A stretch of DNA of 64,000 nucleotides from Balanoglossus misakiensis (lineage: Eukaryota > Animalia > Hemichordata), in assembly GCA_040954595.2 (NCBI GenBank), contig CM082586.2, positions 2,795,124 to 2,859,123 on the forward strand, read 5' to 3'. Within the stretch, counting starts at the first letter, position 1. Every line of letters begins with the position of its first letter. The translations under genes were made by a program, and so were the position numbers. Shown piece by piece: positions 2,380 through 55,773 of the stretch. Below the pieces are notes generated by a model that was given only the letters and a program-made list of their open reading frames with translations, was not told the DNA's origin and searched no databases.

Positions 2380-5300
2380 ATGGCGTCCGCGAATTTTGAA
2401 CCGATCGTCATTCCAAGTCGTTGGCAAGGAGACACCCCGCCCGAGCTTCAGACATCCGTCCGATTGACCGATGAAGACTACATTCAGATGGGGGAGAAAT
2501 TACAGATGATGCTGTCCGCTTTCGACTCCAGAAAACGATCAAGGCCGCACGCCGTGGACGAGATGAAACGCTTCTTCTTGACAGAAGGACAGGGCGATGT
2601 GCCCGGGCTTTTCCCGGAGATCCATCCTCAAATTGCGGAGTCCGAAAAGTGGGAGGACGGCTATGGTCGCGAGGTTGCGCTTCTTCCCCCGGTCAAGACG
2701 ACGCGGTTGCCATGGAGAAGAAAGAAGGCCGACACGGTGGAGAAATCGAAAGCCCACGACAAGCATCGTCCGGCGATTTTGAACCTGGTGCAGAGAAAAC
2801 AGTCTCAACTGAGCAACATCGAAGAGAAATGGGACGACTTTCTGGCGGAGGAGGTAGAAGAGTTCTTATCGGGGATGAAGGCAGCGATACAGGCGAAGAG
2901 AAAAATGATTCTAGGGAAACGCGTGGAGGCGGTGTGGGAGGTAACAAGGTGTCGAGAGCACTTAAAGAAAGCGAAGGACAGACGGGCAAGTCAACTGAAG
3001 ACGTTCGAGAAGATCTACTGCGACATCTTCGACTTGAGAGAGGACCTCAAGAAGCAGCTGTCGCTGATGAAAACCGACTTGGCCAGACACGACGACTACA
3101 AGAAGATAATGAAAGAGCTGGACGCTTGGACGAAGATGATCAAGTACAGCAAGCGCAACCGACAGGCGGTGATTCTCCACAAACAGGTGAAAGAATCGGT
3201 TTCTGTCGGGAAAGGGAAGTGTGGGGGCATACTCAGCGTGGTGTCATTTTCTTTGGACAGCGCCAGGAAAATTTTGGAACACATATCAGCGGTCTGGTCG
3301 CTCTCTGCGTTCTTTCCGAGGCAAATGAGAAATGGTAAGTATAGGATGATTACAATTCTACCTATTTTGTCCAGGCTGGCCATTGTTTGAACCGGCGCAG
3401 TGGTTTGAATTAATATGCTCGCCGTTTCCCAAGTTTCGGTCACATGCGTCTTACATACCGAGTCTGCCTATTCCTGATTGATTATTCAGAAAAAAGATAT
3501 CCAAGCTAGTATTGTTGTCGACATATTTTTGTTTGCAGAATATGTCACCGAGGCGCTTGGCAAAACCGTGGTTGAGGTTCGTAAAACAGTGAGCTCGGGG
3601 TCGGGGAATAGCGGGAGGGTTTATAAAACTGAACTGTCGGCCATGTCATTGATGGATCGGAACGGAGGATTTCTGAGCGTCGACGGCAGCGGCGTTCACG
3701 TCTTCGTTCCCCCGCACGACCACTTCGGCGAGAGCCAAGAAGTCTTCCTGGCGCTGGCCACCGACTCGGCGTCGGACGCCACAGTGCCGTCGAAGATGTC
3801 CCCGCTGGCGCAGATCGACGTCTCGCCCGTCGTTCGCGTGGGACCCGCAGGGCTGAACCTGGACCAGGTGGCGATTCTCACCATACCGCACTGCTTGCCG
3901 GAGCCATCGAAATGGAAAGTGTTCCTCAAGATAAAAGAGGACAACGCGGAAGGAGACAGGAAATGGGAGCTGGCGAATCACGACGACACGCAGATCCTGG
4001 TCAGGGACCATGACGTCGTCGTCCTCATCGACAGAGCGGGCAGTTTCAAAGTCGTGGCCGAGCCAGTCGTCTTCAGCGGGTACCCAACCAAATCGGTGTG
4101 TGTTGGGTCATTCTTTTCACCAAAGCAACGTCAACAGGACACAGGCGTTTCTGAATTTCGACTTCACGTATGGAACGACACTCCATCACATTCCAAGGTA
4201 CAAAAAATAAATCTTCCATGATTTATCTCGAACTCGCGAGAAGTTGCAAAGCTATTGCTCTTTCCTTCTTTCTAAAGTTTTGCCAAAATTTTACACGAAA
4301 CTTTCGACGCTTCATGAATGCACAACTCTTTATCTCGTGACTGAAATGTAGAATTAAGAGAGTAAAACTAAACTTGCCGGTTTTTGTTTTACTTTTACAA
4401 AGATTGTGAAATTCCTGGAAAAACAGCAGTTTGGAGGAGTTATTTCTCATGCTGGATCCATATTGTTACACTCGAAGGGAAGTGACGTCTCAGCCGCCAT
4501 TACGGGTACATCGGCAGATTGGGACGTGTGTGACGACAGCAGAAACAGAGTAAGATTCTAGATTAGTATCCTATATTGGCTTAGAACTTCTCCAAGTTTC
4601 AACAGTGCTAGCATGTGAAAGCGAGCTAGATATACACGTAAATCTAATGATAGGTTGACTGTAGTATTTTGTACACATTTCAGAAGTTCGCTCTATCGAA
4701 AGTCTGGCCACTGGCCGACACGTCGGGGTTCCATCAAGTGTTCCGCGTCAAGAATTTGTCTGACGACATCAGAGTTGACGATCGACGGGCGTATCTTGTT
4801 GTAAACCAAGACAAAACACCATTGCCAGCCACGCCGCTTCTGCTCAAACACGCCGAATCACAAAATGCCGTGAGTACCAAGAAACCCGAGTTCACTTTTT
4901 AAGCCAGCTGGTCCGTTATAGTCTTGATCTAGCTTCTAAGAACTTGATGACAAGAATTAACACAGAATGGAACGATAACAGAAGTGAGTAACATTAAAAT
5001 GATTTCTATTCAACAGGTGGAAAAGGTGGCACTGGTTAATTCTGGCGAGGATATTGATTATTCAGAGGCGCCGACACATTTACACCTGGCGACCAGGCGG
5101 GAGACCTATCACGTGATACCCGAGGAAGATTTCCAGGAATTGTGCGAGATTTTGGACACGAGGGACGACAGCCGAAGAACGGCCATTCCTCCAGACTGGA
5201 GAGGTTTGGCCCTGGCTTACGATCTGGAACTGCTGCACGTCATTCCGTGGGTGGAAAGACGGCTGAACAACAGCCCGACGAGCGTGGTCTGTAACTTCAT

Positions 5301-5742
5301 CATCGGCGAGGAGTTCAGAGAGAACAAGTCGACCTTGGAAATCAGGGAGGATCTGTGGCAGCTCTGCGTCAAGATCCAGGCCACAGAAGCTGCGGAGGCC
5401 GTTGAGGGCGTCACGGTTCTAAGAGAGGAGGATATCCCGAGCGTGGCGGTCATCCTGACGGAGGCAGAGGTCGACAGCGCTGTGGAAGCAAAACTGAACG
5501 CACCCGAAGAGTCGGACGACGCCGATGTGGAAAGAGGGGACGATGGAACGGCAGAGGACGATTCCAGTGACGTCGACGCCGACGAGTTACCTGCTCACAA
5601 AATGCTGAGGAAGTGGATTGACAGGAGAGCGTCAGCCGGCCAGCGCGCAACGTTGGCGGAGCTGCTAGATGCCGTGGATGCAGTCGACAACGCGGACAAA
5701 GAGATCAAGACTCGCGTGGAGAAAGCCCTCAATATCACTTGA
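2380..5742 (+). CDS. Cytosolic coiled-coil + ZU5 + UPA + tandem death domain protein (UNC5C-like/UNC5CL-type module), ~890 aa, 5 coding exons
   Basis: Exons 2380-3334, 3539-4197, 4403-4549, 4684-4869 and 5017-5742 have GT-AG boundaries and consistent phases (2673 nt). ATG is in good context (caagATGG). ZU5: MDRNGGFLSV..GVHVFVPP..VSPVVRVGPAGLNLDQVAILTIPHC. UPA: FRLHVWNDTP..LEKQQFGG. Death domain: ELCEILD..DWRGLA..SPT. No signal peptide or TM segment seen. AATAAA at 6011. Confidence 0.85.
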
Positions 5743-7260
5743 GGCCACTTTGTTTTTCAAATGACCTCTACACTGAACTTTTACTCTTTCACTGGCACGA
5801 CGACCGCCCACCAAAATACCAGTCAAGTAAAAAAAAAACACTTGGTCGACCTTCAGATCATTCTAATGAGAATGGTTGAATACCAATCGTTAGTAGTAGA
5901 TACTGTTTCACAGAGAAGATGAAATGTAAACATTTTACCATCATGGAAAACAAATTCATTATGCGACCGACGTAAAGATTAAGATGTAACTTAAGTTACA
6001 TATATTATACAATAAAGTTAAATAATTGCACACCATTTTTCCTAGTAATTTGACAGCGTAAAAAACAGGTGTGTGTCTGGATTTTTCCTCCACCAACCCC
6101 TCACAAACCACATGGTCATCACCCAACGAAACTATAGTTCATTGACCCAGTAGGTCTCCTGACCCCAAGTGCTGACTTGGATGATTTGGAAATGTGTTTG
6201 TCACCGACGGTTTCTCCAACAACAAAGATAAGCTTTAACCTTTACGGAAATCGCACGATAACCTTACACATATGTAACCAAATCCGAAATTACCGTAACA
6301 ATCATAGCAATAGCTCAATTATGACACTGTATATCGACACTACTTATTCCTTCCATCGTGCATTTGTTCAAAACTTTCGTACCTGAAACATGTAGGTCTA
6401 ATTTGCATATTGTTGGTTCTGTGTTATTAATTTGCATAATACCAATATCTTGGAGCAATGTTTACAGTATTAAAGATAAGGACAGGTGATGTGTGGAAGT
6501 CAAGAGATGAACTATCGAGGGCACTTGCGTATCAAACATTTTGCAGACCAGATGTTTGTTTGAAGCGATCGGTTTACCAAGAAGAGATAGCCCGTTCAAA
6601 CAAAAACTACTGAGCATCATCAACACGATTTGCATTGTCGTCACCGAACACCAACCGAGCCATTGTCCTCTAAAACTTATTGTCCTCCAGTGAAAAACAA
6701 ACAAACAATCAAGCAACCTCAGCAATTCCTAGTAATTGATGTCAGCGATATTTGCTCAAACGTCCCCATTTCAGACAAATTGACCAATCGGCCTTAGCGA
6801 TTCCACTACAGGAATCATTAAAACTTGATGACCGGAAATTGGCGCTCTATTTAAAGGCAGCCACACCGAGGTTGCACAGGCAGTCCCTGGATCGACAGCA
6901 GACCCAGGCCGTGCAGAGCTGAAGAGTACATTAAGTAGGTATGTATTATTTTCCTACGGGCATAAAAAGTTTGTTTTGTAAGTTTCTTTTTGTTACAAAC
7001 AGAGTAGAGAGTTCTCTGGAATATATATGCATGCGCAGAGAAGGGAGGTACCATGTAGAGCGATTTTGCCGTAAGGTATTTTGCACATTTTTTCAGATTT
7101 CGCCAGAACTGGCAGCGCTCTCTTGCGCCAATTTGCTTGTAGTTTATAATATTGAGCTGTCGGGACAAACCTGTCCACTCTCTGCCTTGTCCACTGTCGT
7201 TTTGTCCGCATGTGCCAGACAATCTCAGTGTGTCTTTCATGATCAGGTTAATCAAGAAGA

Positions 7261-10200
7261 ATGGCTCGAGAGCAGCAGAAGTTCTTCGCTCTACTTCTGG
7301 TGTCGTTTGCCCTGATACCGCACGTGAAGCTGTCGGATCCGTATTCGTTCGGTAAGAGACAACTTTGAATTTTGCTTTCACGAGTCAACGCTCTGCCCAC
7401 GGTCACCCACACCACCGAATGTCGTGCACTTGTGGTTCACAAAAAAATGACAGCAGGGTCACCTTGACCACGAGCACTGCAGATGCCTTGACCAATCTCT
7501 AGAGTTACACTGCAAATCGAACCAAACAAGTTTGACACCAGCCACTGCACAACCCCACTACTAGTGGTAGACAGGCAATCAAACCTCGCACTTATCAGAG
7601 ATTTTTGCCAAGTTGGTCAGACTCTCTTTAATATGTTGCTTGATTCGATTCAATGAGGATGCTCATGTCAACATCCAGATGTGCGAATACATGTAGTTGT
7701 TTTCGCTCTGTAGCCATAGCTAATATAGACATTAGAACAATTATGTTAACATAGTGATGCATTGATTTCGAGCTGGTTTTCGATCCCCTGATCTCGAATT
7801 CACTCTAATCAACTATGCCGTGACCACGTAACATTGTTTGTTTTCAACACAGCGATATCAGAGCCAGTTGTTTTGTGTATCATCATAGACAGACCGCTGT
7901 CTACGGCATCATTCAATCATTCACTGCAGATCAGGAACGATTTTGGTGACGAACTGATGACGTGTGCTTGATCATAGACAAGGCTATGTTTTTTATCATG
8001 GCTGCACAATGGTCCGGCACACCTGTTGACTGTAGTGCTTTTGCACGGAATCGTAGCTTTGTGTGACGTCAGAGAGCGGGTACAGACCCAATGGATGAAC
8101 ATGTAGATACGCGAGATAAACAGGCAGGGGTTATCAGAAACCAGTGTCTGGACGGATGTGATCACGCAAGGTAGAAACGGCCGATGTATCTTATCAGCAA
8201 AGGGGCGCCTTGGAGATAGTATCATATTTACACGAGAACATTTATCATTAGTCAGTTGGCCAGTTATCAGCGAGTGATTAGAATGCGACGTCAGCCAAAC
8301 GTTTAATAATCTCAGGCATCTATTAATCAAGTCTTGCAAGATCTCACAATAAGCCGAAAATCGTCAGTTGCTAGGGAATATCTAATTCTGCACTTTTGTT
8401 TTTCACTCCCGAAGAGCATGATGGGAAAGCCTATACGGTACACCTTGATGAGGTCACTTGGAAAGAAGCCTATGATTTGTGCAAGGCGGAATTGTCAGTG
8501 TTGGCCAAAGTTCCCGACCAAGAAACGCAGGACGCCATCGCCGGCTATCTGGGCAGCGATGAAGCGTTTTCGTCAGGTAAGATTCCCCAAACCATATTGA
8601 AAATGATATCGCGACGACGGTCCAATATGTCTTCCCAAGACGTCTGAGTATATTGTCCTCAACGGTATTCTTTGAGAGAGTTTGTGATCTGCATTTCAGG
8701 GAGCTTTTGGATCGACTTGCGTGACACGGACGAAGAGGGCGTATGGAAGGACTCGGAGGGAGATGAACAAACATTCACAGCCTGGACCGCCGGCGAGCCC
8801 AACAACGGTGGTTATGAAACCAACCGGGAAAACTGTGCTCATTTGTCGTGGTAAAGTAAAAAAACAAATATTGTGTTTTCTATTAAAAAAAAGAAAGAAA
8901 GAAAAAGAAATCCTTATGAAACACACTGGAACCAGAACAGTTATCGTTTTATCATCGTGATGGGTCCCCGACCCCGCAAAACAGTCACCAAAACGATTTT
9001 AAAGTCATTGACTTCCTAGCAGTGACACTTGGCCAACACTTTCACAATGTCTTCACGTACTTCTGCACACAGGGAACACAACTTCCTATGGAATGACCTA
9101 AAATGCAAGAGTCGCATCTACTTTATATGCCAGTCAGGTAAGTCAATTGTTGAATTATAATTTATCATCGGCTGTATAGCACTAAGATGGAATAGAATAC
9201 AGTATGTCTCATCTAAAATATGCAGAAGAATGTCGGATACAGTGATTTTGAACATTTTAGCTTCTATACCGCGCGTTGTTTCACGCAGATTCGACACCCA
9301 ACAAGTGCTACAACGAGCCAGAAGGGAATGACTACGTGGGGACCGTGTCCACGACCGTGACGGGCATCGAGTGCCAGTACTGGTCCGAGCAATATCCCCA
9401 GTCGCACGGCAACTTTAAGCCCTACCCCTCGCTGAGCGGACACAACTACTGCCGCAACCCGGAGGGCAGCGGGGACAGGACGTGGTGCTACACGACGGAC
9501 CCCGACACCAGGTGGGAGTATTGTGATGTGGGTTCCTCACGGTTTCCTTGCGATCCAGGTTTGTAGCTATGTCACCTTAAAGGCCTATGATCGCCTTATG
9601 CGCATGTGCGTAATTTCTCTGGTTTGATACATGCCCACAACACGATCTTTGACCGCGCATTAAAAGAAATAGAAAAACAATTTCCGACATCATTTTACCG
9701 AGGCTACGAAACAAAGGTCACAGATTAAGCTAATAAAGGTAAAAAATATTATGTGGGAAATTGCTTCAATCACACTTTGAAAGATTATTACACATTGCGA
9801 TGTTTTTTTCAGGGCTTGTTATGACGACCTCAATTGTCTAATTGCGTAAACGTAGTGGCATTTATCGTTTGCAAAAGACAGATGTATCATATTCAAGGGA
9901 CATTAGCTGTATCCTGTGATTATTTTTCCGGTAGTTAAGTTCTGTTCTATCAAAACAAAATTTGTTTTCAAGATGACGACCCCGAATGCTATTCAAGGTA
10001 TGATGGCGCAGACTATGCGGGTCGCGTCAATGTGACTGCAAACGGAAAAACCTGCCAGAATTGGAACGAGCAGACCCCCCACCGACACTCGTACCGGGGC
10101 GATGACTATCTCGTCGGGCACAACTACTGTCGCAATCCGAGTTTTTCTCGAAACGGGCCCTGGTGTTATACAACGAACCCCGATATTCGCTGGCAGTACT

Positions 10201-13200
10201 GTGACGTCTGCGGAGAAGGTGAGGCATCTAGACATTTTGATGTGAACAATTTTCTGGTGGAGCTGCTAAATCAAACTCAATTTGTTCTATCACAGGAAAT
10301 GTCCAACAGTAATACGTTATATACTGTGACCTGACATCGCATCATTCAACCACATCAGAATATTGATTGTGGACTATCAGGTTCAGCTGTTAGTTTCAGA
10401 AAGTCCCTTCCTAGGGGCGTTAAACTACAGCGCGACATAACGACGACACCGTGCACTTTATGTTTTGCAGGTATACCCACTGACAACATCGCCCTCAACA
10501 AGCCCGCCAGCCAGAGTAGTCTGTTCCAAGACAACGCCGTGGCAGGAAATGCTGTCGACGGCTTCAAGAGTACATACTTCGGAGACGAGTCCTGCACCCA
10601 CACTGACCTTGAAAGCGAGCCGTGGTGGAAGGTCGACCTTGAAGACACGTACTTCGTCACCGAAGTAATCATTACGAACCGCAGAGACTGCTGTGGTAAG
10701 CAATGCTTAAAGTCGATGACTTTGATTCTACACAAAAATATAAGCACGTCAATCAAATATGTAATATGATCATCAAAACAGAATGATATGCGCTTTGAAT
10801 AAAGTCGGCGGCGGCCAGGAGTAAAATGTTATACTGGTTCTTTTAATCAGCGGAGCGATTGGAAGGGGCCGTGGTACGCGTTGGTTCAAAGAGAGACGGT
10901 TCTATGAATGGACAATGTGGGGAACCAGTCAGCGCTTATGACGCTGCCGAAAAGCACATCCTATATTTCCAGTGCGACAGCGACGCTGTTGGCCGCTATG
11001 TCAGCGTTCACCTGGAAGCGAAATACCAGCATTTGACATTATGTGAGGTTGAAGTCCGAGGAACAAAGGGTGAGTTTGACAGAGTGTCTCCTGTAAACAT
11101 GTAAAACACTGTGTATTTACATGTATGCTGTGAACCGATAAAACTAACAGAAAAAGTTGGGACGGAAAATTCAAAAACGACACAAGTAGTCCAAAGCCAC
11201 GACCGCATATGCAACCCTCGAGGAAGGTGCACAGCGTGGCTATTAAATGTGAAATAATTGCAGAAAATTACTGAGATCACTGACATATGTCATAAGATTA
11301 TCTATTTCATTGTACTGCAGCTGACTTGTGGAGACATGACGGCCGCTGTGGTCCGAGATACGAGGTAGTATCCAACCTGGACGGAGAATGCAATCCCAAT
11401 TCTGTCCTCACTTGCTGCTCGGGTTATGGATGGTGTGGCGCTTCGGCTGACCATTGCGAGTGTCGCGATTGCATCGACTACACGAAAGTCGACAATGTCG
11501 ACGAAACTTCTGAAGAGGATGAAGGTAAAAAGAGCGAAGGGGGGGGGGGTGAGAGTGTTGAACACCCAACACTTTGGCTAGTTGGACACAAAACCCTACG
11601 CCTACCGACGGTGTCGCAATAAATGGCAGCGAAATTTGCACAAATGGTGCAAGCTGTACCATTGATTTTGATTTTCGTTTGCCTTTAATCCAACCCCTTA
11701 ATATTAAACATGCACCTTACATGTCTTCTTAACAGAAAAAGTGAATCTTGCCCTAAACAAAGCGACTTCACAGAGCAGCCTCCACTCGGACCGAGGGGTG
11801 GCAGACCACGCTGTTGACGGCTTCAAAAGCAGCCAATGGATTGATGGTTCGTGTTCACACACTTTGTTAGACTTTGAGCCCTGGTGGAAGGTGGACCTAG
11901 GTGACACCTACCCTATTGGCCAAGTCGTCATCACAAACAGGCGAGAGTGTTGCTGTAAGTACCATGTGGAGTTATTGGGTGTGGCTGAGGTATGTTTACT
12001 TGATTAAAAAGCTTGCTTCTGCCAGCATCATACTTTAAAATTACTCTTTGAATCAAATAATCGCTCTTACCACGAGGGTAGCATTTACATTACAGGTGCA
12101 TAATCACCTATGCAAATTTAGCTAAAATTACCAAGGGCAATTGGGATCTAGCCAATCACAGACTTTTGCGGGGTGGCCGCGCGAATAAAAGTGCGCCACT
12201 TGAAGGTCACTCGAAGATTTAGACACGCCATATATGGGCATATGTAAAAGTACTGTTGACACCTTGAACCCGCCCTTCAATCCGCAGCGGAACGTCTTGA
12301 AGGCGCTGTCATACGCACAGGAACAGAGGAGAGTATCAGAGAGAACGCCGTCTGTGGTGGCGCTGTCAGCATAGACCAAGTGACTGAGAAATCCATAACC
12401 ATCGACTGCGGCGGGCGCTTTGGTCGTTTCGTCAGTGTACAGATCGAAGGCCGAGAAGAATACCTGACACTGTGCGAAGTCGAAGTTTACGAAGCTGACG
12501 GTAATGACATATCTATTTTCATTTCCCATGGCGGGAAATGTGGTTTACCATCTACCACTATAGCCGATGCCTGAAACAAGTGGTGACCTTTCACCGACTT
12601 TCCCACATCTCGACAACCAAAGCAAAGTCAGCTTTGGCATTTGGAGGGATTGAACACCTAATATAAAGCTCGGGTTGTAATGGCTACTAATTTCATCTAT
12701 ATTGATCTACAGTAAATTGGCGAGCCGACGCACAGTGCGGTCCAGGGTTCACGGCGCCAAACGGAGTGTCTCCGGCAGAGTGTGACCCGCACGGAATTTA
12801 TCCTTGCTGTTCAACGGCCAACTGGTGCGGAATCAGCGCTGACCACTGTGAATGTTACGGTTGTATTGACTACAGAGAAGTATATGGAGGTGAGTTCACT
12901 ACAATGTCTTTGTAGAGTTCAAAAGTCCACTATACCATAGAGGGACTATGACTAACGACAGATCTGAATGTATGTGTCTGTTTGAGACCACACAACACCA
13001 CACCAAACCAAGCCAAGCCAAGCCAAGCCAAGCCAAACACTCCTTACCACATATTTCATGCCATCCCATACCATATCACATAGAATACATCTTCACAAAA
13101 TGTATCAAGTCAACAGCGTCTTATCATACAGTTCAATCCAATTCACGTTTCACAGTGCTATGTGTATGTCTCTTTCTTCTAGTATCCCAGTCACCTGTCA

Positions 13201-16200
13201 GCGCATGTTCACAACCAACAAGGATTACTATTGTTGGTGACGAAGAAGTGACTGTGACGTCACCAGATTATCCTAACATCTACCCCAGTTATGCAGATTG
13301 TCGATGGTTTATAACAGCGGATTCCAATTCTGACATCCAGGTATAGTCTCTGTTACCCCAAGGTCAAGTTCCTCCGAGAAAGTGTTTGGTCGGACTTCTT
13401 TTCTGCAAATTGTGTCATTAAGATGTGTTACCAAGCAGATGTGATCTTATACACGTTCTTTTAACCTTATATGGGCATATTAAAATTAAAAGTGAATGTA
13501 TCCTTTGAACGTATAGGTTACGATCAATTACGTTGATCTGGAAAACTGTTGTGCAGATGTCTATATTGGAACAGGCGATACCATCGGAAACAATGACTTG
13601 TTCACGATAACTAACGACATGTCTAGATCTACGGTTGCCGAGTCCAACGAAGTGTGGATTCAGTTTGACAGTTCTGCAAGTGAAGTGAGGCAAGGAAAAG
13701 GTTTCAGCATCGCGTTAAGGGGACAGCCTAAAGGTAGGTTTCCTAGGGGGGCTTGGGACCTTTTAGAAGTATCGATCTTAATTCTTTCAGAGTATGAGAA
13801 TAGCACTCCTGCCAATATAAATATTCTGGTTAGATTAGAATTGATGGTGTAATCCTTTGAATATGCCACAGCGCGACACAAATGATCTACAGTTACAATA
13901 TGCCAGATGTTTTCCAAATGATCAACATGAAATGCGGAAAAGCTCAACTTTCAATCTATTTTCCTCTAAGTTTCTACAGCTAATTCATGGCGAGACGACG
14001 TACAGTGCGGTACATGGTTCGAGGCGCCAAATGGAGTACATCCGGCAGAATGTGACCCGCACGGAATTTATCCTTGCTGTTCAACGGCCAACTGGTGTGG
14101 AATCAGCGATGACCACTGCAAATGCTATGGATGTATTGATTATAGGGAAGTGTATGGAGGTGAGTTGATGATGCATAGATTGTGCATAGATTCGCATCCG
14201 CATCCATCGTACCACTTTGAAAGCATACTCCGTGTGATACCAATCATGTTGTCTATCCTCTTCCTAGTAACCGAGTCGCCTGTCGATGCGTGTTCAGAAC
14301 CGAAAAGGATAACTATTGTTGGTGACGAAGAAGTGACTGTGACGTCACCAGATTATCCTAACATCTACCCCAGTTATGCAGATTGTCGATGGTTTATAAC
14401 AGCGGATGCCAATTCAGACATCCAGGTATAGTCTCTTTTACCTCAAGGTCAAGTTCCTCCGAGAAAGTGTTTGGTCGGACTTCTTTTCTGCAAATTGTGT
14501 CATTAAGATGTGTTACCAAGCAGATGTGATCTTATACACGTTCTTTTAACCTTATATGGGCATATTAAAATTAAAAGTGAATGTATCCTTTGAACGTATA
14601 GGTTACGATCAATTACGTTGATCTGGAAAACTGTTGTGCAGATGTCTACATTGGAACAGGCGATACCATCGGAAACAATGACTTGTTCACGATAACTAAC
14701 GACATGTCTAGATCTACGGTTGCCGAATCCAACGAAGTGTGGATCCAGTTTGACAGTTCTGCAAGTGAAGTGAAGCAAGGAACAGGTTTCAGCATCACGT
14801 TAAGGGGACAGCCTAAGCCTAAAGGTGGGTTTTCTACGTGGTCTTTGGGACATTTTAGAAGTATCGATCTTATTTCTTTCAGAGTATGAGAATCGCACTT
14901 CTGCCAATATCAATATTCTGATTAGTTTAGACTTGATGATGTAATCCTTTGAATATGCCACAGCGCGACACAAATGATCTACAGTTACAATATGCCCTAT
15001 GTTTTCCAAATGATCAACATGAAATGCGGAACCGGAAAAGCTCAACTTTCACTCCATTTTCAACTAAGTTTCTACAGCTAATTCATGGCGAGACGACGTA
15101 CAGTGCGGTACATGGTTCGAGGCGCCAAATGGAGTACATCCGGCAGAATGTGACCCACACGGAATTTATCCTTGCTGTTCAACGGCCAACTGGTGTGGAA
15201 TCAGCGATGACCACTGCAAATGCTACGGATGCATTGATTATAGGGAAGTGTATGGAGGTGAGTTGACAATGAATAGACTGGGCTCTAGACTTATGGAAAG
15301 GGCGTGTTAAACGTTCTTCGCATCCGCATCCATCGTATCACTTTGAAAGCATACTCCGTGTGATTCCAACCATGTTGTTATTCCTCTTCCTAGTAACCGA
15401 GTCGCCTGTCGATGCGTGTTCAGAACCGAAAAGGATAACTATTGTTGGTGACGAAGAAGTGACTGTGACGTCACCAGATTATCCCAACTTCTACCCCAGT
15501 TATGCAGACTGCCGATGGTTTATAACAGCGGATTCCAATTCTGACATCCAGGTAAAGTCATATTTACTTCATGGACAAATTCCTCCGAGAAAGTGTTTGG
15601 TCGGACTCGGACCTCTTGCTGCAAAGCGTGTGATTGAGATGTTGGCATACGTAAGTAAAGAGTGGTTGTATCCTTTGAACTTATAGGTTACTGTCAATGA
15701 CGTCGATCTGGAAAACTGTTGTGCAGATGTCTACATTGGAACAGGCGATACCATCAGAAACAATGAATTGTTCACGATAACCAACGACATGTCAAGATCA
15801 ACAGTTGCCGAGTCCAACGAAGTGTGGATCCAATTTGACAGTTCTGCAACTGGCGTGGAACGAGGGACAGGTTTTAGCATCACGTTAAAGGGACAGCCTA
15901 AAGGTGGGTTTCCTAGGGGGCCTTTGGGACTTATAGGTGCGTTGATCTGGCCCTCTTCGCTCATATGCTGAAAAATCGCACTCCCGCTCCAAAATCACTG
16001 TGCCGTTTGCGTAAGGTTTCTGGGTATAATCTTGGGATACCGATATTCAACTCTGGAGGACACGCGTGTTCCTAATTACCAACAGCACTGGTGGAGAATC
16101 TCGCATTACCAATCTTTTTCAACTTCCACTTTCTTGAAGGACCGTCTTGGCGAGAGGACCTTCAATGCGGTGGGGGATGGACAGTACCAAATGGAGTTTC

Positions 16201-19200
16201 CCCGGCTGAGTGTGACCCCTATGGAATCTATCCCTGCTGCTCGACGACCAACCGATGCGGGATCAGCGATGACCACTGCAAATGCGACGGTTGCATTGAT
16301 TACAGAGAGACCTACAACGGTATACTCATAATATGATACGACTTTGATGCTCGGTACACAAAAAGGGCAGTGGATGAAACGACGTCTCACTTACTCAAGA
16401 CGTTTGTTTCCTCAAACATGTCTTTTGCGACTGTCTTGTGCACATATCAGATGGTACTTTTAGGTTTCTTGTGAGTCCTGGTTCCACTGTTTAACGGCAG
16501 AGCTCGGAAATCGTAATGATTTAGCAGACCTTTTTACGCAACACTCCGTTAACGCCAGTCAAATGGCATACGCTTTAGTAAACGATTGAATAGAATCCAA
16601 TGTATTTTTTCTCCAGTTGGTGACGAATCGCCTGTCGCCGCTTGCAGTGAAGTTAAACATCTCCAAATTCCGAAAGGCGGAGAGGTCAACATAACGACCC
16701 CTGGCTACCCCGGCGTCTATCCAAATTCTGCCAACTGTCGATGGATGGTTTCAACAGAAGACCCGAATGATTACATTGAGGTAACAAGAAGTTAAAAACG
16801 TATAATGGCGAGGGTACTGAATCAGATGTATACCTAGCAATGGTGACCCTCTGTCTGTCAACTTTGTTGGCTGTATCTGGCGAGGCAGCACGTGATAGAC
16901 TGAATGAATGAGCCACTGTCACTCTAGGTTTATGAGGTTTCCTTTCTGTTGATTGCAGATCCAGGTTGACAGAGTTACTATGGAACCTCGCGACACAACT
17001 TATGTGGGAATAGGGCCAAGGTTCGGTTACGATGGTGTACTTCGTGTAGAAGGAAATGTCGGACCTATAAGACATACAGTGCGGCTGTCGAAAGTTTGGG
17101 TCCAATTTCAATCGGACAACAATTATGCGTATCAAGGTTTCCTCATGACCTTAAGAAGTAAGATACCAGGTAAATGCATTTGCATAGGTGACTTTAAAGG
17201 TTCTAGCTTTCAAAGTCATATTTTTAGTCGATGCGACGATAATTTCTCATTATTAATTAACAATTATTGTAATTTATCCCTCCGACATCACTGGCTGGTT
17301 GGGGGCCGGGCCACTTGCCTGGCTGCCGACAACCCATCAGAACATGCAATATAAACCAAGCAAAAAAAAACAAATCTTGATCCAGATATAATATATCGGC
17401 ATTATTTATGATGATAACCTGAAGTCCTCACCATTTTTTTGCACTGCAGATCCAGAGCCGAGAGAGATAGGTACCGGAAGTGCATGTTGGTCCGTGGAGA
17501 ACGTTCAGTTATCAGACAGGGATATTTTCCGAATAAGTTCTCCGGGCTACCCGTCAGAGTATCCCGATGATGCAACCTGCAAGTGGTTACTCTCGACCAC
17601 CAGTCCGAACATCAGGATGAAGGTAGGTCTCCTGATTCTTTGAAGTGGTTTACTATGAAAGAGGTAGAAGTTTTCACCACCTAGGCGAGTGATAAAAATC
17701 TCGTGTGGTCACGATGGCGGATTGCTGCCATATTTGGTAAATATGAGCAGGAAAAATATCAAAAGAAATGTCAACGAGTTCTAATTATGAAGACGGAACG
17801 TGTAAACAATGTTCTGTGCATGTGCTGCAAATATGCGCTACGATTCGACGCGCACCTAGTAGGCTAGTATGTGGACACAACGTTACGTGCAAATACTGTC
17901 GTAACATATCAGCTTCATACACAGGCATATTATGTCCTCACAGCGATAACAACGCAAACATATATAAACGTTGATGTACAATGTGATTGCAGGTTGAGTT
18001 CTTGGCATTCAGTACTGAAGAAGATGGCGATATACTGGAGATTGGAAGCGGTGATACATTTGACGAGAATCGTATCATTTCAGCATCGGGCAGAGATTAC
18101 TCGGGATATGTTCCACCGCCGATAACAGACACGTACACAAACTTGTGGATGAAATTTGAGAGTGACTGGGTCTTGTCGGGTACTGGATTTCAGGTGGAAG
18201 TTACAACTGTGGTGGAATGTACGTATTGAACACAAGAGACCAGACCAGAATTCAGACAATGGACTTGGATTCAATTGAATTGAACAGGATAGATAAAATG
18301 GGACCGTATATATGAATTGAATAGAATTACAGTATAAAACAAGACATTATAAAGTAGAATAAAACAGTATACATAGTACAATACAATACAATACATAACA
18401 ATACTGTACAATATTGCAATGTTAATTGGGCGTGGTTACTGGTACTTGACTTCAAAGCTTATTTTCCATTGCACCAACTAAAGGACAATGATGTCATTGC
18501 TTCTAGATCCAGAAGACCCTGTCTGTACAAGTCGCTGGTCAAACAAATCGGGTCCTGGGGATGACGCCCAGGCGGAAGTTGAATGTGAAGACGACGAGAA
18601 GATGACGTCATGCAACAGTGCGACGAGCGACAGAGAGTCGCACGGCACAAGGGATGGCGAAAGGATTGACTACGTGACACTCAAGCCCAAGTGTGTGGCT
18701 CAAAACGGAGCCGGTGGATTGGGTATGCAGGTTTTCTATTTACTATCTGGATACCGTGCGATTTTCTGATGATTTTCACCACATTGCGAGATCTCGCGAG
18801 ACTTGGTTTATTACTGTAGTACAAGTCGAGCATTCTATCAAATAAGACCAGGTGGAGATTTAAACAAAACTAACTTTAAACTTTCACATGAATATCCTCC
18901 GATATAAACTGCCCAGCTACGTGAGATCTCGCGGGGTTCGGGAAATGGTATATTGCTCAATGATAGTACATGTTTTTCATCCCTGTTTTCCATTTCAGGT
19001 GTATATGCTGTAGCTAGATGCTGCAAGTGGCGTGGACTCCAGTGTTACTACACCGATTCGACCCAGAAGTCCGGCACTGAAGACGACGACACGGCAGAGG
19101 CGATGTGTGAAGGAAACATCAATGGCCTCCCTGTCAAAACCGTCGGTAAGACTTCTAATTTATCTTAATCCATGAGGTACAAGTAATAAGCCTTGATTTT

Positions 19201-20263
19201 GATAGACACGAGGTTCTTTTGGGGATCATTTTCTTTACTAAAAACAATGTATTTGTCCACAGGTTGTATGGCGCATACACTTGGACAGTGGCTTGATGGA
19301 GCTCGACCGTGGTCTAATTCAGACGATTTTACACCCAATCTGCAAAGTCCCTTCTCGGCGAACGGCTGCGTGGCACAGAATGGCATTTACGGCGACGGTC
19401 AGTGCTTCATCAAATATCTTTCTTTCTCTGACACCACTGCTTTGCAATGTTTATGGCCAATTGGGATACTAGTTATAGATATACGCTCTAGACCAGATGG
19501 CTGGCTGGCTGGATGGATGGATGGATCGACGGATTTTATATGATGGGTATACACAAACGGATTAGAATCTCCACAAACTCAGGATAAGGATCAGGGGCAA
19601 AATATCCTACATACGGGGCAGCTACTGTGGCTTTATCCGTTCAGAAAAATCTCCCTCCTGTACATATATTATATGTTACCCCCACGCAGGTGTTTGGGCT
19701 GGTGCAGCCTGCTGCAGTGCACCTGGTTTGCGGTGCCAGCACGTCTATTCTGAGAGAAGTCCAGGTGTTTCCAATGGCGTGGCGTTCGTCCGATGTGACG
19801 AGGGTTGGATAATGACAGGGTGTAGCGTGTTCACCTACTGGGGTGTCACTGATGGAGCTTACATTACTGGTAAGAAATTTCAGACATTTAAATAAAAGTG
19901 CTGTTAATTGTACCATTTTATAACAGTTAGCACATTAAACTCATTCAATTTGTTTCCCTTTTTGTTTGTTTTTTCTGTCACAAAGTCTCTGAACGACCAA
20001 GTTTCACTCTAGCTTTGAAATTCTATCGGCAATCTTGGAATTCTCGACCATGCGAGATTTTAATCGCTCACCTAGGTAGCCAACACCTATTTAAGGTAGC
20101 GAGAATTGAAAGTACAATCAGTAACTTAACATGAACATCCCTTCTGTTTCTCTAATCAGCTGACGGTACATGCAAGGCGATAAATGGCGGCCAAGCGAGC
20201 ATGGGCAACAACACACGCGGTGTCTGGGCAGTTGCCATCTGCTGCAAGGGCAGCGAGGACTGA
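7261..20263 (+). CDS. Secreted mosaic multi-lectin protein (~1822 aa, 30 exons): SP-CTL-Kringle x2-FTP-hevein-like-FTP-(hevein-like-CUB)x4-CUB-PCSK9-type C-terminal domain
   Basis: Exons 7261-7351, 8415-8576, 8700-8850, 9073-9137, 9289-9558, 9973-10218, 10471-10695, 10851-11069, 11321-11524, 11736-11954, 12288-12500, 12713-12889, 13183-13340, 13517-13733, 13980-14159, 14268-14425, 14602-14824, 15078-15257, 15394-15551, 15687-15903, 16140-16319, 16617-16780, 16959-17169, 17450-17622, 17993-18218, 18507-18722, 18999-19145, 19263-19397, 19690-19869, 20160-20263. All are GT-AG and phase-compatible (5469 nt). Signal-like N-terminus MAREQQKFFALLLVSFALIPHVKLS. Ends AVAICCKGSED*. AATAAA at ~20552. 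Confidence 0.85.
8415..9137 (+). other. C-type lectin domain (3 exons) with EPN and WND motifs
   Basis: TWKEAYDLC..LAKV; FWIDLRDTDEEGVW..WTAGEPNN..ENCA; WNDLKCKSRIYFIC. Confidence 0.9.
9289..10218 (+). other. Two kringle domains, one per exon (9289-9558, 9973-10218)
   Basis: CY..G.DY.G..G..CQ.W..HNYCRNP..WCYTT.P..RW(E/Q)YC in both exons. Confidence 0.92.
10471..12500 (+). other. Two F-type lectin (fucolectin/FTP) domains (10471-11069, 11736-12500) separated by a hevein-like exon (11321-11524)
   Basis: N(I/L)ALNK..SQSS..AVDG..C(T/S)HT..PWWKVDL..V.ITNRR(D/E)CC..ERLEGA..LTLCEVEV. Confidence 0.9.
12713..15910 (+). repeat. Tandem triplication (~1.1-kb unit) of hevein-like + two CUB exons, including the introns
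   Basis: Equivalent donors at 13340, 14425 and 15551. Introns 13341-13516 and 14426-14601 are almost identical, as are 13734-13979 and 14825-15077. Confidence 0.9.
13008..13036. repeat. (CCAAG)n pentanucleotide repeat
   Basis: Read directly from the sequence; lies in an intron of the mosaic gene. Confidence 0.85.
18507..20263 (+). other. PCSK9-type C-terminal cysteine-rich (resistin-like) domain, modules M1-M3
   Basis: Three 6-Cys modules. M1: CTSRWSNKSGP..VECEDDEKMTSCNS..RDGERI..CVAQNGAGGLGVYAVARCC. M2: CYY..AMC..VGCMAH..CVAQNG..GVWAGAACC. M3: SAPGLRC..VRCDEGWIMTGCS..GAY..GTC..VWAVAICC. These closely parallel the recalled human PCSK9 motifs CRTVWSAHSGP..GVYAIARCC, CCHAPGLEC..CEEGWTLTGCS..GAYA and VTAVAICC. 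Confidence 0.85.
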
Positions 20264-20922
20264 TCGTGTTCGGTGAAACAACGGGCTGGTTTAGATTTAG
20301 AACCCCAATATTAGTCGACATTTGTTAAATAGAATACTTTACGGTGTATCAACTGAATTTCTTTGGATTTCGTTTTACGCACACTTTATACTACTTATCT
20401 TATATACTCTTCAGTCCTACGTTTCGGGCGTTGCGTAACTTTACCACAACGCAGAAACGATATGCGACGTACAACGCAAAGATTATCGACCACAAATTGA
20501 GAACTCCTCCAAGGTGAGGCCATTGCATCACGCAGTGCAGCGGCCATGCAAAATAAACTCTCGCAGGAGATAACATAACAAACTTACCTCGTCTTGAATT
20601 TTGTCCAGAAACGCTGGCAAGTGTCGGTGATAGCTTATCCATTGAAATGTCGCTCCAACATCACCTGAGGTTTTCCTGTCGTATTCCGGGTATTCCACAC
20701 AAGCGACGCGATATACTAAAACTGTGACTTTCTCCGAAACTACATTCAGTCCAAATAAACGCCAATGGCATAAGGTTGTAAAGATGACCGCTTGGGAAAA
20801 AATTGAGTCTGTTTCTGTCTTTCTCCCTCGATACATGTCCCTGCATGGATTCAGCCTCGAGGTGTGCGCACGGCAAACTCCATTTTGTCTTTTTGTGATG
20901 GTAATAATCTCCCCCCCCCCCC

Positions 20923-21065
20923 CGGCTCGTTTGAGAGGGGCTGTCGTGCGTGTTGGGAACCAACCAGACTTCAGAAGCAAACACAGGTGCGCAGGTGCGC
21001 TCGGCTGGTCTGACGTCATCACTAGTGGGATATCTGTCGTGTGTGGCGCTGTACGTGGGCGTTTC
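20923..21065 (+). pseudogene. Orphan, decayed F-type lectin second-half exon fragment
   Basis: Translates ARLRGAVVRVGNQPDFRSKHRCAGALGWSDVITSGISVVCGAVRGRF, matching exons 10851 and 12288 (ERLEGAVVRVG..CG..ITIDCGGRFGRF). There is no AG acceptor (a poly-C run instead), the LTLCEVEV end is missing, and it lies downstream of the gene's stop. Confidence 0.65.
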
Positions 21066-21961
21066 CCAGCATGCAACTCGAAGGACACTACCAATTTTAA
21101 CATCGATGAGTGTATTTCACGGGACATGTCACCTTAATAAGGTGTTTCGCATTGCTTGCCGGTTTAAAAAGTCAACTTTAATTTTTCTTTGGTTCAAATA
21201 ATGACCCTTATGTATTTTGAAATTGGGTCAAAACCTTAACACATCACCAGTTTACAACGTCTGTGTAGAAAGCAAAAAAAAAAAAAAAAAAACCTCAAGC
21301 GGTATTCAAAGTACCCGTTTTCCATACGTCTCCCATCAAATCAATTCGGAATAATGTACGTGTCTGGCGAATTATTTCCTCCTTGTGAAATAGTGTAAGA
21401 AATTTTAAATGCAAATCATTCGACATTACTACCTGAGTGTTTGTTCCATCAACCCCTGGCTGTTGGAGGCCAAATTTGCATGGCACCGGCGGGCTGTTTA
21501 TCGGGACACCCGCGAGTTCATCTCGTGGTCGTGTCAGGTAACTTGACTTTGACCGCTAGATGAACTCAAATCATGCAAATGTTCTGGCCTACACGTTTGA
21601 TCATGTTTGGACGGTAATATTGCAGAGCGCCTGTAAACATGATAGTGTGTACAGTATAAGTTAAATTTTACTTACTACAGGGCCATGCAATCTTATCTTC
21701 AAAATAAATCACTTCTAAATAATTCTGAAATTGCATTCTTATCTTCAAAATAAACAAAAGTGTGCGGAATATCACTTTGACAAAATATTTAGCATCCCAT
21801 AAAACCTTTACGGCCCTGATAGAGGTCACGGTTTCGCCGGCCGCAGTCGAAAGGCCTTCCCAAAGTTCGGGCTCTCCTATCGTACAACCGCAGTCCGCAA
21901 GCCCACATCGGGACCGTAAAGAATAAAATAACACATATATCTTAGCATTGTTTCTTTCTTT

Positions 21962-23630
21962 TTAATAGTCTGGAACGAGGCTGATACCAGTCCTATTAAT
22001 ATACGTAATCAATTTGTGGGCACGTTTCTCCGTGACGTTAATGAGCTTTTCCACAAAAGGTCTTCCGCCTTGTTCTTCCCAGTACACTTTGTCAATGTAG
22101 AGAGACTGAAGCATCAGATCCTGGAATTTTCCAGATTTTAAAACCGATATTGGGTACTCGGGTATCCTGAAACAACATGAAAGAGATAAAAGTCTAGTAG
22201 ATATTCAGATGAACTATTCAAAATCTGTTTTTTTTTCTGCATCATACCGGTTATAAGTGAGATTCTAGTACAGTTTAGATTTTGGGATGATTGATCGATA
22301 CATGAATTGGATGGTCGGTCGTTTGAAAATCGCTCGCCCCTCTCTTCTCTCTCTCTCTCTCTCCATGTCGGTCACATCAGTTAAACTTACTCTTGAATTC
22401 CTTCTAGGAGCCTGTAATTCAAATGTTCGGCGCTTCTATTCAAATTAAAGACATTGTCAATAAAGACTAGACGACTTTCATCCTGCGTATGGGTGAATAT
22501 ATGAACCAAATGCTGGCGTTGTATGTCTATGCATTCGTTGTCATAGAGACCATTTGTAAAACACGGCTCGCCTTCGTCTCGGTCATAACCACAGAAACTT
22601 CTGTCGATACGGTCATGATTCTACAAAATGAAAAGAAAAGCTTGGTCAGTACATGCGCCCATATTACGAAATTTGAATTAGACAGTTTTTAAAAGAATTC
22701 AAAAAATATTTAACTTACTTGTAAAAGAAAGTCGTATATTGCTAATTTGCCCCACTCGATGTGTCTAATTTTTGCCGTGCAGTTAACATTTAGCTCCGAT
22801 TCTTCCATGTTTTCCCGCGCAAAGCAGCGATTGGCCAACTCCCGTTGGTAGTCGGTCCACCACAGGGACATAGAGTTCTGGTCTGGTTGGAGGGTTCCTG
22901 AATGGCGGATATGGGGATCCCACCAGACAATTGGCCGGCACTTGCCGTCCGAGAAGCGGCTCCCGAACGCCTCAAACACCGCGTCGTCTGTCTCGTTGCC
23001 GCCGAATCTTCTGGCCACGGTGGGTAGAACACGATTCAGACCAAGTACTCGATCTAGATGGAAAGCATACACCTCGTGGATGTCCTCAGCGCTTTTCTGC
23101 ACCCCGCACTGGTCCACACACTCTCCGAAGCTGTTAATCGCTGGTCCCCTGCTGTCTTCAAAGATTACCTCCTTGAGTCGTATGTGGCGATCGACCGAAA
23201 AGGCGCTGGAAATGTTCCCGTTTGACACCAGCTCCATCCTGAGAACATCGCTCCTGTCAAACCAGGGCGGAATATACGCATCGAACCGTAGATTCGAGTT
23301 GTTCTTTTTCCTGATTTCCCGCAGGAGGTCGCCGTCTTGCTCGTACACGAAGGGCGGTATCTCATCAACATCCACGTTCAATATTCGCTGAACTCTGTAG
23401 GCGCCGTCCCGGTTGGCCACAACGAACAGCTCTCCCGACGAAATCTGCCGGAGCGTCGCCGAAGGAACCACGCTGCTTTTTCCCGGTGAGTAGGTCACTG
23501 GAGAAGGCAGTATACTTGTGAAGTTTCCGTTCAGATATACTTGCAGCGTCACCAAGAGAATCAGAATCGCTGACACCAACAAAACTGCCCAAAATCTGTT
23601 CAGTGTTAACACTTTGGTCGCGGTAGCCAT
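21962..23630 (-). CDS. GASK1: FAM198/GASK1-family Golgi-associated kinase paralog (short stem), ~448 aa
   Basis: Exons 23630-22719, 22620-22391 and 22166-21962. N-terminal type II anchor FWAVLLVSAILILLVTLQVYL. Motifs CGVQK, EVYAFHLDRVLGLNRVLP, EWGKLAIYDFLLQ, HDRIDR, LVFIDN, LNYRLLEGI, LQSLYIDKVYWEEQGG. Confidence 0.9.

Positions 23631-32447: not shown

Positions 32448-55773
<23,326 letters not shown>

What the first reader, a model, noticed from the sequence alone, without database searches (positions are those of the whole stretch)
7261..20263. Secreted multi-glycan recognition platform: C-type lectin, two F-type lectins, five hevein-like, kringle and CUB modules in one chain
Seen: one ~1822-aa protein with a signal peptide, no TM segment and no catalytic domain. 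Known: EPN/WND C-type lectins bind mannose/glucose-type sugars in a Ca-dependent way, F-type lectins bind fucose, and hevein domains bind chitin/GlcNAc. Inference: a soluble opsonin or agglutinin reading three glycan classes, whose PCSK9-type tail could couple captured cargo to a receptor for endo-lysosomal clearance (a natural lysosome-targeting adaptor). A mucus, gamete or matrix role is an alternative. I do not recognise this architecture as a named protein.
Basis: partly seen in the sequence, partly recalled or inferred. Interest (0 to 1): 0.85.

Follow-up and report, generated by a model that had tools for sequence, protein, structure and literature searches.

The report
Acorn-worm multi-lectin with PCSK9-type tail
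This is a real, spliced gene, likely from an acorn worm, for a large protein predicted to be secreted; it chains three kinds of predicted sugar-binding domains to the tail of the cholesterol drug target PCSK9 without PCSK9's enzyme part, likely clumps or tags microbes, and shows that this tail is a mobile module which may bind ligands of its own.

Summary
Observation confirmed: 30 exons, 29 GT-AG introns, 1822 aa, N-terminal hydrophobic stretch only, no catalytic domain. Order: C-type lectin, 2 kringles, F-type lectin, hevein-like, F-type lectin, 4x(hevein-like+CUB), CUB, PCSK9 C-terminal domain. Spliced contigs of one run match 13 of 29 introns among the 15 joints shown. The same layout exists as 'uncharacterized' proteins in Ptychodera flava and Glandiceps talaboti, with variable repeat numbers.

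Corrections: only 1 of 5 hevein-like modules keeps both chitin-binding aromatics. The tail folds like PCSK9's, but is acidic and His-poor (3 His against 10-13). At PCSK9's R469/R496/F515 surface cluster it has D/D/A, and PCSK9's receptor-binding catalytic domain is absent. So the lysosome-adaptor idea is weak (about 0.1).

Best reading (0.5): a multivalent agglutinin or opsonin whose tail is likely a further binding head. The tail also stands alone in hemichordates and is fused to GH10 xylanases in gastropods. No binding is shown. The scan's notes held no earlier record of this architecture; one unchecked note describes a resistin-like head on a sea-urchin receptor.

The parts
6848..6855 (+). 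TATA-like box (TATTTAAA) upstream of the non-coding first exon
   Evidence: sequence; function inferred from position
6898..6938 (+). 5' UTR exon (at least this long)
   Evidence: X3 contig joint 6936 to 7245, GT..AG
7247..7351 (+). Exon 1: in-frame TAA at 7249, ATG at 7261, predicted signal peptide
   Evidence: joint to exon 2
8415..9137 (+). C-type lectin domain, exons 2-4 (EPN117, E128, WND141-143)
   Evidence: Pfam Lectin_C pieces; motifs
9289..9558 (+). Kringle 1, exon 5
   Evidence: PF00051 E 4.7e-21
9973..10218 (+). Kringle 2, exon 6; no acidic pair in the lysine-site loop
   Evidence: PF00051 E 2e-20
10471..11069 (+). F-type lectin domain 1, exons 7-8 (H372/R399/R406)
   Evidence: best PDB hits FBP32 3cqo E 4e-32 and eel agglutinin 1k12; motif
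11321..11524 (+). Hevein-like module 1, exon 9: the only one with S, Y, W, H at all four chitin-site positions
   Evidence: site defined in PMC4610682
11736..12500 (+). F-type lectin domain 2, exons 10-11 (H586, RxE, R)
12713..13733 (+). Repeat unit 1: hevein-like (first aromatic is Ala) + CUB, exons 12-14
13980..14824 (+). Repeat unit 2: hevein-like + CUB, exons 15-17
   Evidence: 91-94% aa identity to units 1 and 3, dN/dS 0.15-0.24; closest solved relative of the hevein part is amphioxus PGRP3, 4z8i, E 6e-10
15078..15903 (+). Repeat unit 3: hevein-like + CUB, exons 18-20
16140..17169 (+). Repeat unit 4 (older, about 50% identity to units 1-3): hevein-like lacking both aromatics + CUB4, exons 21-23
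17450..18218 (+). CUB5, exons 24-25; keeps an E..D..SD acidic set
18507..20263 (+). PCSK9-type C-terminal domain: three resistin-like modules, 18 Cys, exons 26-30, stop codon
   Evidence: PF18459/PF18463; P. flava counterpart modelled at pLDDT 88 matches PCSK9 7anq at Z 28.2, rmsd 2.2 over 217 residues; one spliced contig joins exon 25 to the 3' UTR
20264..20787 (+). 3' UTR (approximate), AATAAA at 20552 and 20754
   Evidence: X3 contig cover

Best explanation
The gene encodes a 1822-residue chain of lectin, kringle, hevein-like, CUB and PCSK9-tail modules that is predicted to be secreted and likely works as a multivalent agglutinin or opsonin, cross-linking microbes or particles to each other and to host glycans in mucus or body fluid. 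Shown: the gene, its domain order, splicing of many joints, intact lectin motifs, conservation in two other acorn worms, purifying selection on the repeats. Inferred: the N-terminal half reads sugars (EPN C-type lectin: Ca-dependent mannose/glucose/GlcNAc type; two F-type domains: fucose; hevein module 1: chitin/GlcNAc). The hevein+CUB repeats, with a reduced sugar site and variable copy number, would act mainly as an adjustable stalk. The PCSK9-type tail would be a further ligand-binding head at the far end, using a conserved acidic patch (D1581, D1582, D1612, D1663, D1664, D1695, D1783), and not a pH-switched sorting tag.
For: Domain order and motifs. Same frame, CTL-K-K-FTL-hevein ... PCSK9 tail, in 5 of the 11 hits (4 P. 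flava clusters, 1 G. talaboti); FTL number varies 1-3 and hevein+CUB units 1-4. Window units 1-3 group together (100/99) apart from other species' units, with dN/dS 0.15-0.24 in the 5 of 6 pairs that could be computed. Tandem F-type lectins are described as opsonins, and FTL architectures are expanded in hemichordates (PMC5712786, passages and section 16 part 1). The tail is 72-74% identical to relatives, above the CTL (61-64%) and FTL1 (63-68%). The 7 Asp are kept 6-7 of 7 in 12 of 12 hemichordate non-protease tails and 0-1 of 7 in 8 of 8 vertebrate PCSK9; they fall in strand 1-2 and 3-4 turns of the model. D1581, D1612 and A1631 align to PCSK9 R469, R496 and F515, a surface cluster needed for LDL binding (PMC7039556, passages). 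The tail also occurs alone (6 of 11 hits) and behind CBM4_9+GH10 in 6 of 28 hits, 5 named as gastropods. An X3 contig differs from the window at 7 of 14 listed FTL1 codons by amino-acid changes, including triad H372Q, against 0 of 7 in kringle 2 (Fisher p 0.047).
Against: No binding, agglutination or tissue data for this gene. Motif retention does not prove function. The conserved Asp-Gly and Asn-Gly may be structural turns; N1629 is also Asn in 5 of 8 PCSK9. The 12 hemichordate tails are related and not independent, and the gastropod tails keep only 0-5 of the 7 Asp. That the Asp residues share one face is inferred from strand order; I had no coordinates. No lectin was among the 21 chains at Z 2 or more. 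The FTL1 variant rests on one contig at depth 5.2, was picked after looking, and may come from a paralog; it also removes a triad His. A possibly related Schizocardium gene (SCA26355, annotated PCSK9 plus F5/8; sequence not seen) is listed only for a neural and an endoderm cluster in the stored, cut part of the marker table, which does not point to immune cells.
Confidence: 0.5

Rival explanations
1. Non-immune glycan cross-linker: a structural component of feeding or burrow mucus, an egg coat, or a sperm-egg recognition protein.
For: Hemichordate epidermis is highly secretory and mucins serve muco-ciliary feeding (PMC13554239, passages). Oyster sperm bindins are F-type lectins (PMC5712786, passages). 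Variable tandem repeats that group by species are also typical of gamete and matrix proteins (own knowledge).
Against: The closest solved relative of the hevein module sits in an immune protein, amphioxus PGRP3. No mucin-like Ser/Thr/Pro tract or collagen in the chain. Three different sugar specificities suit diverse microbial surfaces better than one self ligand (inference).
Confidence: 0.22
2. One reading: the tail binds a recycling receptor and carries lectin-bound cargo to lysosomes, as PCSK9 does with LDLR.
For: The fold is PCSK9's (Foldseek E 1.5e-22; Z 28). In PCSK9 this domain is required for LDLR degradation and binds APLP2 more strongly at low pH. The tail is the most conserved large domain. 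An AU test does not reject grouping the lectin tails with protease-borne PCSK9 tails (p 0.42).
Against: The catalytic domain that binds LDLR is absent, and the isolated PCSK9 tail does not degrade LDLR. The pH-dependent contact with the LDLR ligand-binding domain is usually ascribed to His and positive charge (own knowledge); this tail has 3 His and stays negative at pH 5.3 in 6 of 6 lectin-array proteins. The R469/R496 cluster is charge-reversed. A Glandiceps subtilase with its own, positively charged tail groups with vertebrate PCSK9 (98/96-97, long-branch caveat) to the exclusion of the lectin tails. A sorting role is hard to fit to GH10 xylanase tails.
Confidence: 0.1
3. Targeted killer: the lectins dock the protein on microbes and the resistin-like tail permeabilises the membrane, as RELM-beta does.
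For: Each module resembles resistin/RELM-beta (Z 3.6-3.7, weak) and the whole tail resembles the membrane-binding APC-beta prism of apicomplexan perforin-like proteins (Z 5-6) (PMC6294395 passages). The RELM-beta C-terminal head alone binds and permeabilises membranes (PMC13647132, passages).
Against: RELM-beta prefers negatively charged lipids, while this tail carries -10 at pH 7. These Z-scores are in the range of a common arrangement. A 200-kDa chain is an awkward pore subunit (inference).
Confidence: 0.07
4. Artefact: several genes or an over-expanded assembly read as one.
For: No single contig spans the gene. One X3 joint skips a whole repeat unit (14423 to 15685).
Against: One open frame across 29 GT-AG introns. 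The same order in RefSeq models of two other species. Repeats differ by 6-14% in protein with a synonymous excess. CUB5 is spliced to the tail in one contig.
Confidence: 0.03

Closest known systems
Uncharacterized hemichordate proteins XP_070534534-8, XP_070534540-2, XP_070534543 (Ptychodera flava) and XP_077990235 (Glandiceps talaboti)
   Same: Same domain frame and order; domain identities mostly 55-93% (CUB4/5 25-48%), tail 72-74%.
   Different: Number of FTL and hevein+CUB units differs; P. flava appears to hold three genes on one contig. None is named or studied in the searches run.
PCSK9 C-terminal Cys/His-rich domain (PF18459, PF18464, PF18463)
   Same: Three six-strand modules, 18 Cys, same predicted fold.
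   Different: No prodomain or subtilase; 3 His against 10-13; acidic; D/D/A at R469/R496/F515.
Tandem and mosaic F-type lectins (striped bass FBP32, eel agglutinin AAA)
   Same: His/Arg/Arg triad at the spacing of AAA, adjacent Cys pair, gapless alignment across the motif.
   Different: Embedded in a 1822-aa mosaic; cation motif reads AVDGF, where the last position is usually N, D or S.
Amphioxus PGRP3 hevein-like chitin-binding domain (PDB 4Z8I)
   Same: Same 8-Cys module with the N-terminal WRxD loop (E 6e-10); module 1 has S/Y/W/H at S51/W53/W55/H62.
   Different: Modules 2-4 have Ala and module 5 Thr at W53, module 5 also Arg at W55; no amidase partner.
Resistin / RELM family
   Same: Module fold resembles the resistin head (Z 3.6-3.7); some stand-alone hemichordate tails have a short N-terminal segment that looks coiled-coil-like (by eye).
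   Different: Single-chain pseudo-trimer with 3 predicted disulfides per module, acidic; no sequence hit to resistin at E up to 10.

Membership tests
Ca-dependent mannose-type C-type lectin | EPN plus WND and the intervening Glu (five Ca-site-2 ligands; positions recalled from MBP-A), four core Cys | tested here: met
   E117, N119, E128, N142, D143 in the window; same pattern in 8 of 8 relatives' sequences listed
Ca-dependent mannose-type C-type lectin | Ca-dependent sugar binding | not testable with these tools
   needs glycan array
F-type lectin | His...RxD(x4)R/K fucose motif with adjacent Cys-Cys | tested here: met
   H372/R399/D401/R406 and H586/R/E/R; motif definition in PMC5712786. One X3 contig reads H372Q
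F-type lectin | h2DGx cation motif with small hydrophilic x | tested here: inconclusive
   AVDG present in both domains, x is Phe; the review notes frequent replacements
Hevein-like chitin-binding module (PGRP3 type) | 8 Cys core | tested here: met
   8 invariant Cys in 5 of 5 modules
Hevein-like chitin-binding module (PGRP3 type) | Ser plus two aromatics (W53/W55 of PGRP3, whose double mutant loses binding): module 1 | tested here: met
   S/Y/W/H
Hevein-like chitin-binding module (PGRP3 type) | Ser plus two aromatics: modules 2-5 | tested here: not met
   A/W in modules 2-4, T/R in module 5; Ala in all 13 CUB-linked modules of the 5 representative relatives. The single mutant was not reported in the parts read, so weak binding is possible
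PCSK9 (proprotein convertase) | I9 prodomain plus S8 subtilase domain | tested here: not met
   no PF00082 or PF05922 on any of 30 exons or in the 5 relatives
PCSK9 C-terminal domain | Three pseudo-symmetric Cys-rich beta modules | tested here: met
   PF18459 E 1.8e-12; model of the P. flava counterpart, Z 28.2 to 7anq
PCSK9 C-terminal domain | Histidine richness and positive charge at endosomal pH | tested here: not met
   3 His, -5.2 at pH 5.3; 8 vertebrate PCSK9 rows 10-13 His, +7 to +18
PCSK9 C-terminal domain | Drives receptor sorting to lysosomes | not testable with these tools
   needs uptake assay
Lysine-binding kringle | Acidic DxD pair plus Arg and aromatic cleft (recalled from plasminogen kringles) | tested here: inconclusive
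   K1 has E/D separated by three residues and RW; K2 has no acidic pair
Ca-binding CUB | Glu, Asp, Asp acidic triad (recalled) | tested here: inconclusive
   CUB1-3 lack the last Asp in register (FDSS); CUB4-5 keep SD; read by eye
Known lectin folds, for the tail | Structural match to a solved lectin | tested here: inconclusive
   none listed at Z 2 or more among 48,161 chains; an unlisted family is not excluded

The most novel reading that the evidence does not exclude
The PCSK9 C-terminal domain is an ancient, free-standing recognition module, probably a Ca-dependent or direct sugar-binding pseudo-trimer with an acidic site at the spot where PCSK9 has its disease-linked R469/R496/F515 cluster. 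Invertebrates use it alone, on lectin arrays, on kringle proteins and on GH10 xylanases; vertebrate PCSK9 rewired the same site to basic residues. This protein would then read four ligand classes and define a new lectin fold.
Probability: 0.25. Interest if true: 0.85.

Novelty: new variant of a known kind. Interest (0 to 1): 0.55.

Why it matters
Mosaic multi-lectins are common in invertebrate deuterostomes, so the lectin chain alone is modest news. The tail is the point. What PCSK9's C-terminal domain binds is still debated, and it is known almost only attached to the protease. Here it appears without a protease in at least four settings, two of them carbohydrate-directed, with a conserved acidic patch at the position of PCSK9's LDL-binding mutation cluster. 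The small stand-alone hemichordate versions (287-321 aa) are ready-made constructs for asking what this fold recognises by itself. The gene also gives a candidate broad-range recognition protein in a phylum whose immunity is barely studied.

Tried and rejected
No whole genome is held, so paralogs and synteny in this species were not checked. The look-up of sequencing runs: no RNA holder listed (3 runs, 1 sample, 1 study). Contig depth in X3 rises towards the 3' end, but the tool says contig depth cannot rank parts of a gene, so I did not use it. The opposite-strand joint 9644/11275 in X1 looked like an inversion of exons 6-8; both ends fall on GATC and an X2 contig runs straight through 9217-10552, so I took it for a ligation product (inference). 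The joint 14423 to 15685 may be a contig of exons 18-20 placed partly on the 96-98% identical exons 15-16; not counted as alternative splicing. A word search with exon 26 alone found 0 of 34 candidates. The full HMMER search of cluster representatives was never run, so the range of the tail outside the hits is open; the absence of this architecture from Saccoglossus, echinoderms and amphioxus in those lists is weak evidence. ESM Atlas: best cluster 0.90, mostly molluscan, PCSK9_C1 on 10% of members; bacterial rows under 0.9 ignored. No solved lectin matched the tail model. 'The tail comes from a lineage apart from PCSK9' was tested and not established (AU p 0.42). Trees left out P0020, P0037 and isoforms, then 2 near-duplicates and 10 more long or redundant rows. 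Literature searches for the architecture or for invertebrate non-protease PCSK9 tails found nothing relevant: (search listings only; open-access library only). PMC1976225 is not held. Supplements of PMC11618098: 0 occurrences in 2 files. No complex was folded: no candidate partner is known.
Full report
Gene. Reading the splice sites and joining exons in a script gives 30 coding exons from 7261 to 20263 on the + strand: 5469 nt, 1822 aa and a stop, with no internal stop. All 29 introns are GT-AG; 23 are phase 1, including all those between domains, the pattern expected of exon shuffling. An in-frame TAA lies 12 nt before the ATG and the 5' UTR has no ATG. Hydrophobicity peaks only at residues 1-30. 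The protein is 201 kDa, pI 4.4, with 102 Cys.

Transcription. Three runs of one sample hold the stretch; none is on record as RNA. X3 behaves as RNA: its contigs skip introns at GT..AG, and the five spliced joints listed have no depth in X1 or X2. Of 25 joints 15 are shown: 13 match model introns 1, 2, 9, 15, 20 and 22-29, one is a 5' UTR intron, one jumps between near-identical repeats. One 1101-nt contig joins the end of CUB5 to all five tail exons and the 3' UTR. No contig spans the gene, so the single chain is inferred from overlap and from relatives.

Domains. The F-type domain's best solved relatives are FBP32 and eel agglutinin, the hevein module's is amphioxus PGRP3, the tail's is PCSK9.

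Relatives. A profile of three tail exons found 11 proteins among 458 candidates: five with the same lectin frame (four P. flava clusters, one G. talaboti), and six short proteins (287-351 aa) holding only the tail, from P. flava, G. talaboti, Saccoglossus and an unnamed source. The window is therefore likely an enteropneust hemichordate. RefSeq calls the long ones uncharacterized; consecutive accessions on one contig suggest three P. flava genes. The frame CTL-K-K-FTL-hevein and the tail are constant; FTL number varies 1-3 and hevein+CUB units 1-4. A second profile found 28 proteins among 7993 scored candidates: these five, a Glandiceps kringle protein, a Glandiceps subtilase, six GH10 xylanases (five named as gastropods, CBM4_9-GH10-tail) and 15 PCSK9 or PCSK9-like rows.

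Binding sites. The CTL keeps all five Ca-site ligands (positions recalled from MBP-A) and both FTLs keep His/Arg/Arg (definition in PMC5712786, passages). For the hevein type, PMC4610682 (parts 1-2 of 5 read) shows S51/W53/W55/H62 as the site and loss of chitin binding in W53A/W55A. Only module 1 has both aromatics. Modules 2-4 have Ala at the first, as do all 13 CUB-linked modules in the five representative relatives, and module 5 has neither. The repeats are recent, with similar introns, dN/dS 0.15-0.24, and units 1-3 group by species. I read them as a stalk with at most weak sugar binding (inference).

The tail. A model of the P. flava tail (pLDDT 88, 18 strands) matches PCSK9's domain (Z 28.2, rmsd 2.2 over 217 residues), and only weakly APC-beta prisms (Z 5-6) and resistin (Z 3.7). 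It is 72-74% identical across three species. It differs from PCSK9 in the features tied to receptor sorting. It has 3-5 His and a charge of -5 to -15 at pH 5.3 in 6 of 6 lectin-array tails, against 10-13 His and +7 to +18 in 8 of 8 rows labelled PCSK9; six further vertebrate PCSK9-like rows range 3-14 His. PCSK9 binds LDLR through the catalytic domain, and the isolated tail is inactive though required (PMC5403857 and PMC4298671, passages). Seven Asp in the strand 1-2 and 3-4 turns are kept 6-7 of 7 in 12 of 12 hemichordate non-protease tails, 0-5 in six GH10 tails and 0-1 in eight PCSK9. D1581, D1612 and A1631 align to R469, R496 and F515, which cluster on the surface of PCSK9 module 1 and are needed for LDL binding (PMC7039556, passages). 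So a known ligand-binding surface is conserved here with reversed charge. That it binds Ca2+ or sugar is a hypothesis; no lectin fold matched. In trees the protease-borne tails form one clade (98/96-97) without the lectin tails, but a sister relation is not rejected (AU p 0.42).

Expression lead. The marker table of a Schizocardium single-cell atlas (PMC13554239; passages, section 11 part 1, and searches in supplements) lists a gene, SCA26355, annotated both PCSK9 and F5/8 domain. It appears for cluster 2 (neural; 38% against 21% of cells) and cluster 8 (endoderm; not significant). The file is cut at 16,936 rows and row 12,801 is still cluster 10, so most immune and secretory clusters were probably not visible; the sequence was not seen, so orthology is unproven. 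The uncut table may bear on the best explanation.

Verdict. The most likely role is a multivalent agglutinin or opsonin with a variable stalk and a binding head at each end (0.5). A mucus, matrix or gamete role comes next (0.22), then the lysosome adaptor (0.1) and a RELM-like killer (0.07; PMC13647132, passages). Searches of the open-access library and of this scan's notes found no description of the architecture. It is a new variant of a known kind, the mosaic multi-lectin; its main interest is the protease-free PCSK9 tail.

Noticed in passing
window 20921-21110 (+): Orphan second-half F-type lectin exon behind the gene: no AG acceptor, two frameshifts, 39% identity to FTL2. X1 and X2 contigs carry one extra base at 21066, and contigs of all three runs continue from 21097 into sequence like exon 11, so an intact copy may exist on another haplotype or at a paralog.
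   Followed up: partly
window 10471-11069, run X3: A spliced contig differs from the window by 7 amino-acid changes in FTL1, including the fucose-site His372 to Gln, while the kringle 2 differences listed are all synonymous. Allele or paralog not settled.
   Followed up: partly
P0022-P0024, P0026, P0030, P0031: GH10 endo-xylanase-like proteins (five named as gastropods) end in a PCSK9-type C-terminal domain; not found described in the searches run.
   Followed up: partly
P0020 (Glandiceps talaboti, 668 aa): Three kringles are inserted inside module 1 of a PCSK9-type domain, at the point where the window gene has a phase-1 intron, behind a coiled-coil-like N-terminus. Could be exon shuffling or a gene-model error.
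   Followed up: no
P0006-P0011, P0019: A family of small hemichordate proteins labelled 'PCSK9-like' holds only a signal-like start, a short linker and the tail domain, with no protease.
   Followed up: partly
window 2379-5742 (+): Separate upstream gene with a ZU5 domain (E 2e-12) and a weak Death-domain match, own stop at 5742.
   Followed up: no
window 22710-23693 (-) and 27400-30163 (+): Two divergently oriented FAM198/GASK1 genes (E 2e-45, 2e-44).
   Followed up: no
window about 33800-54000 (-): LRR and PDZ-like exons of a Scribble-type gene (label by eye); one intron near 53050-53690 holds a tandem repeat that opens spurious ORFs.
   Followed up: no
PMC13554239 supplement file 5: Schizocardium genes named Pcsk9 are numbered up to at least 61, most annotated as aqualysin-like subtilases: a large family in hemichordates.
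   Followed up: no
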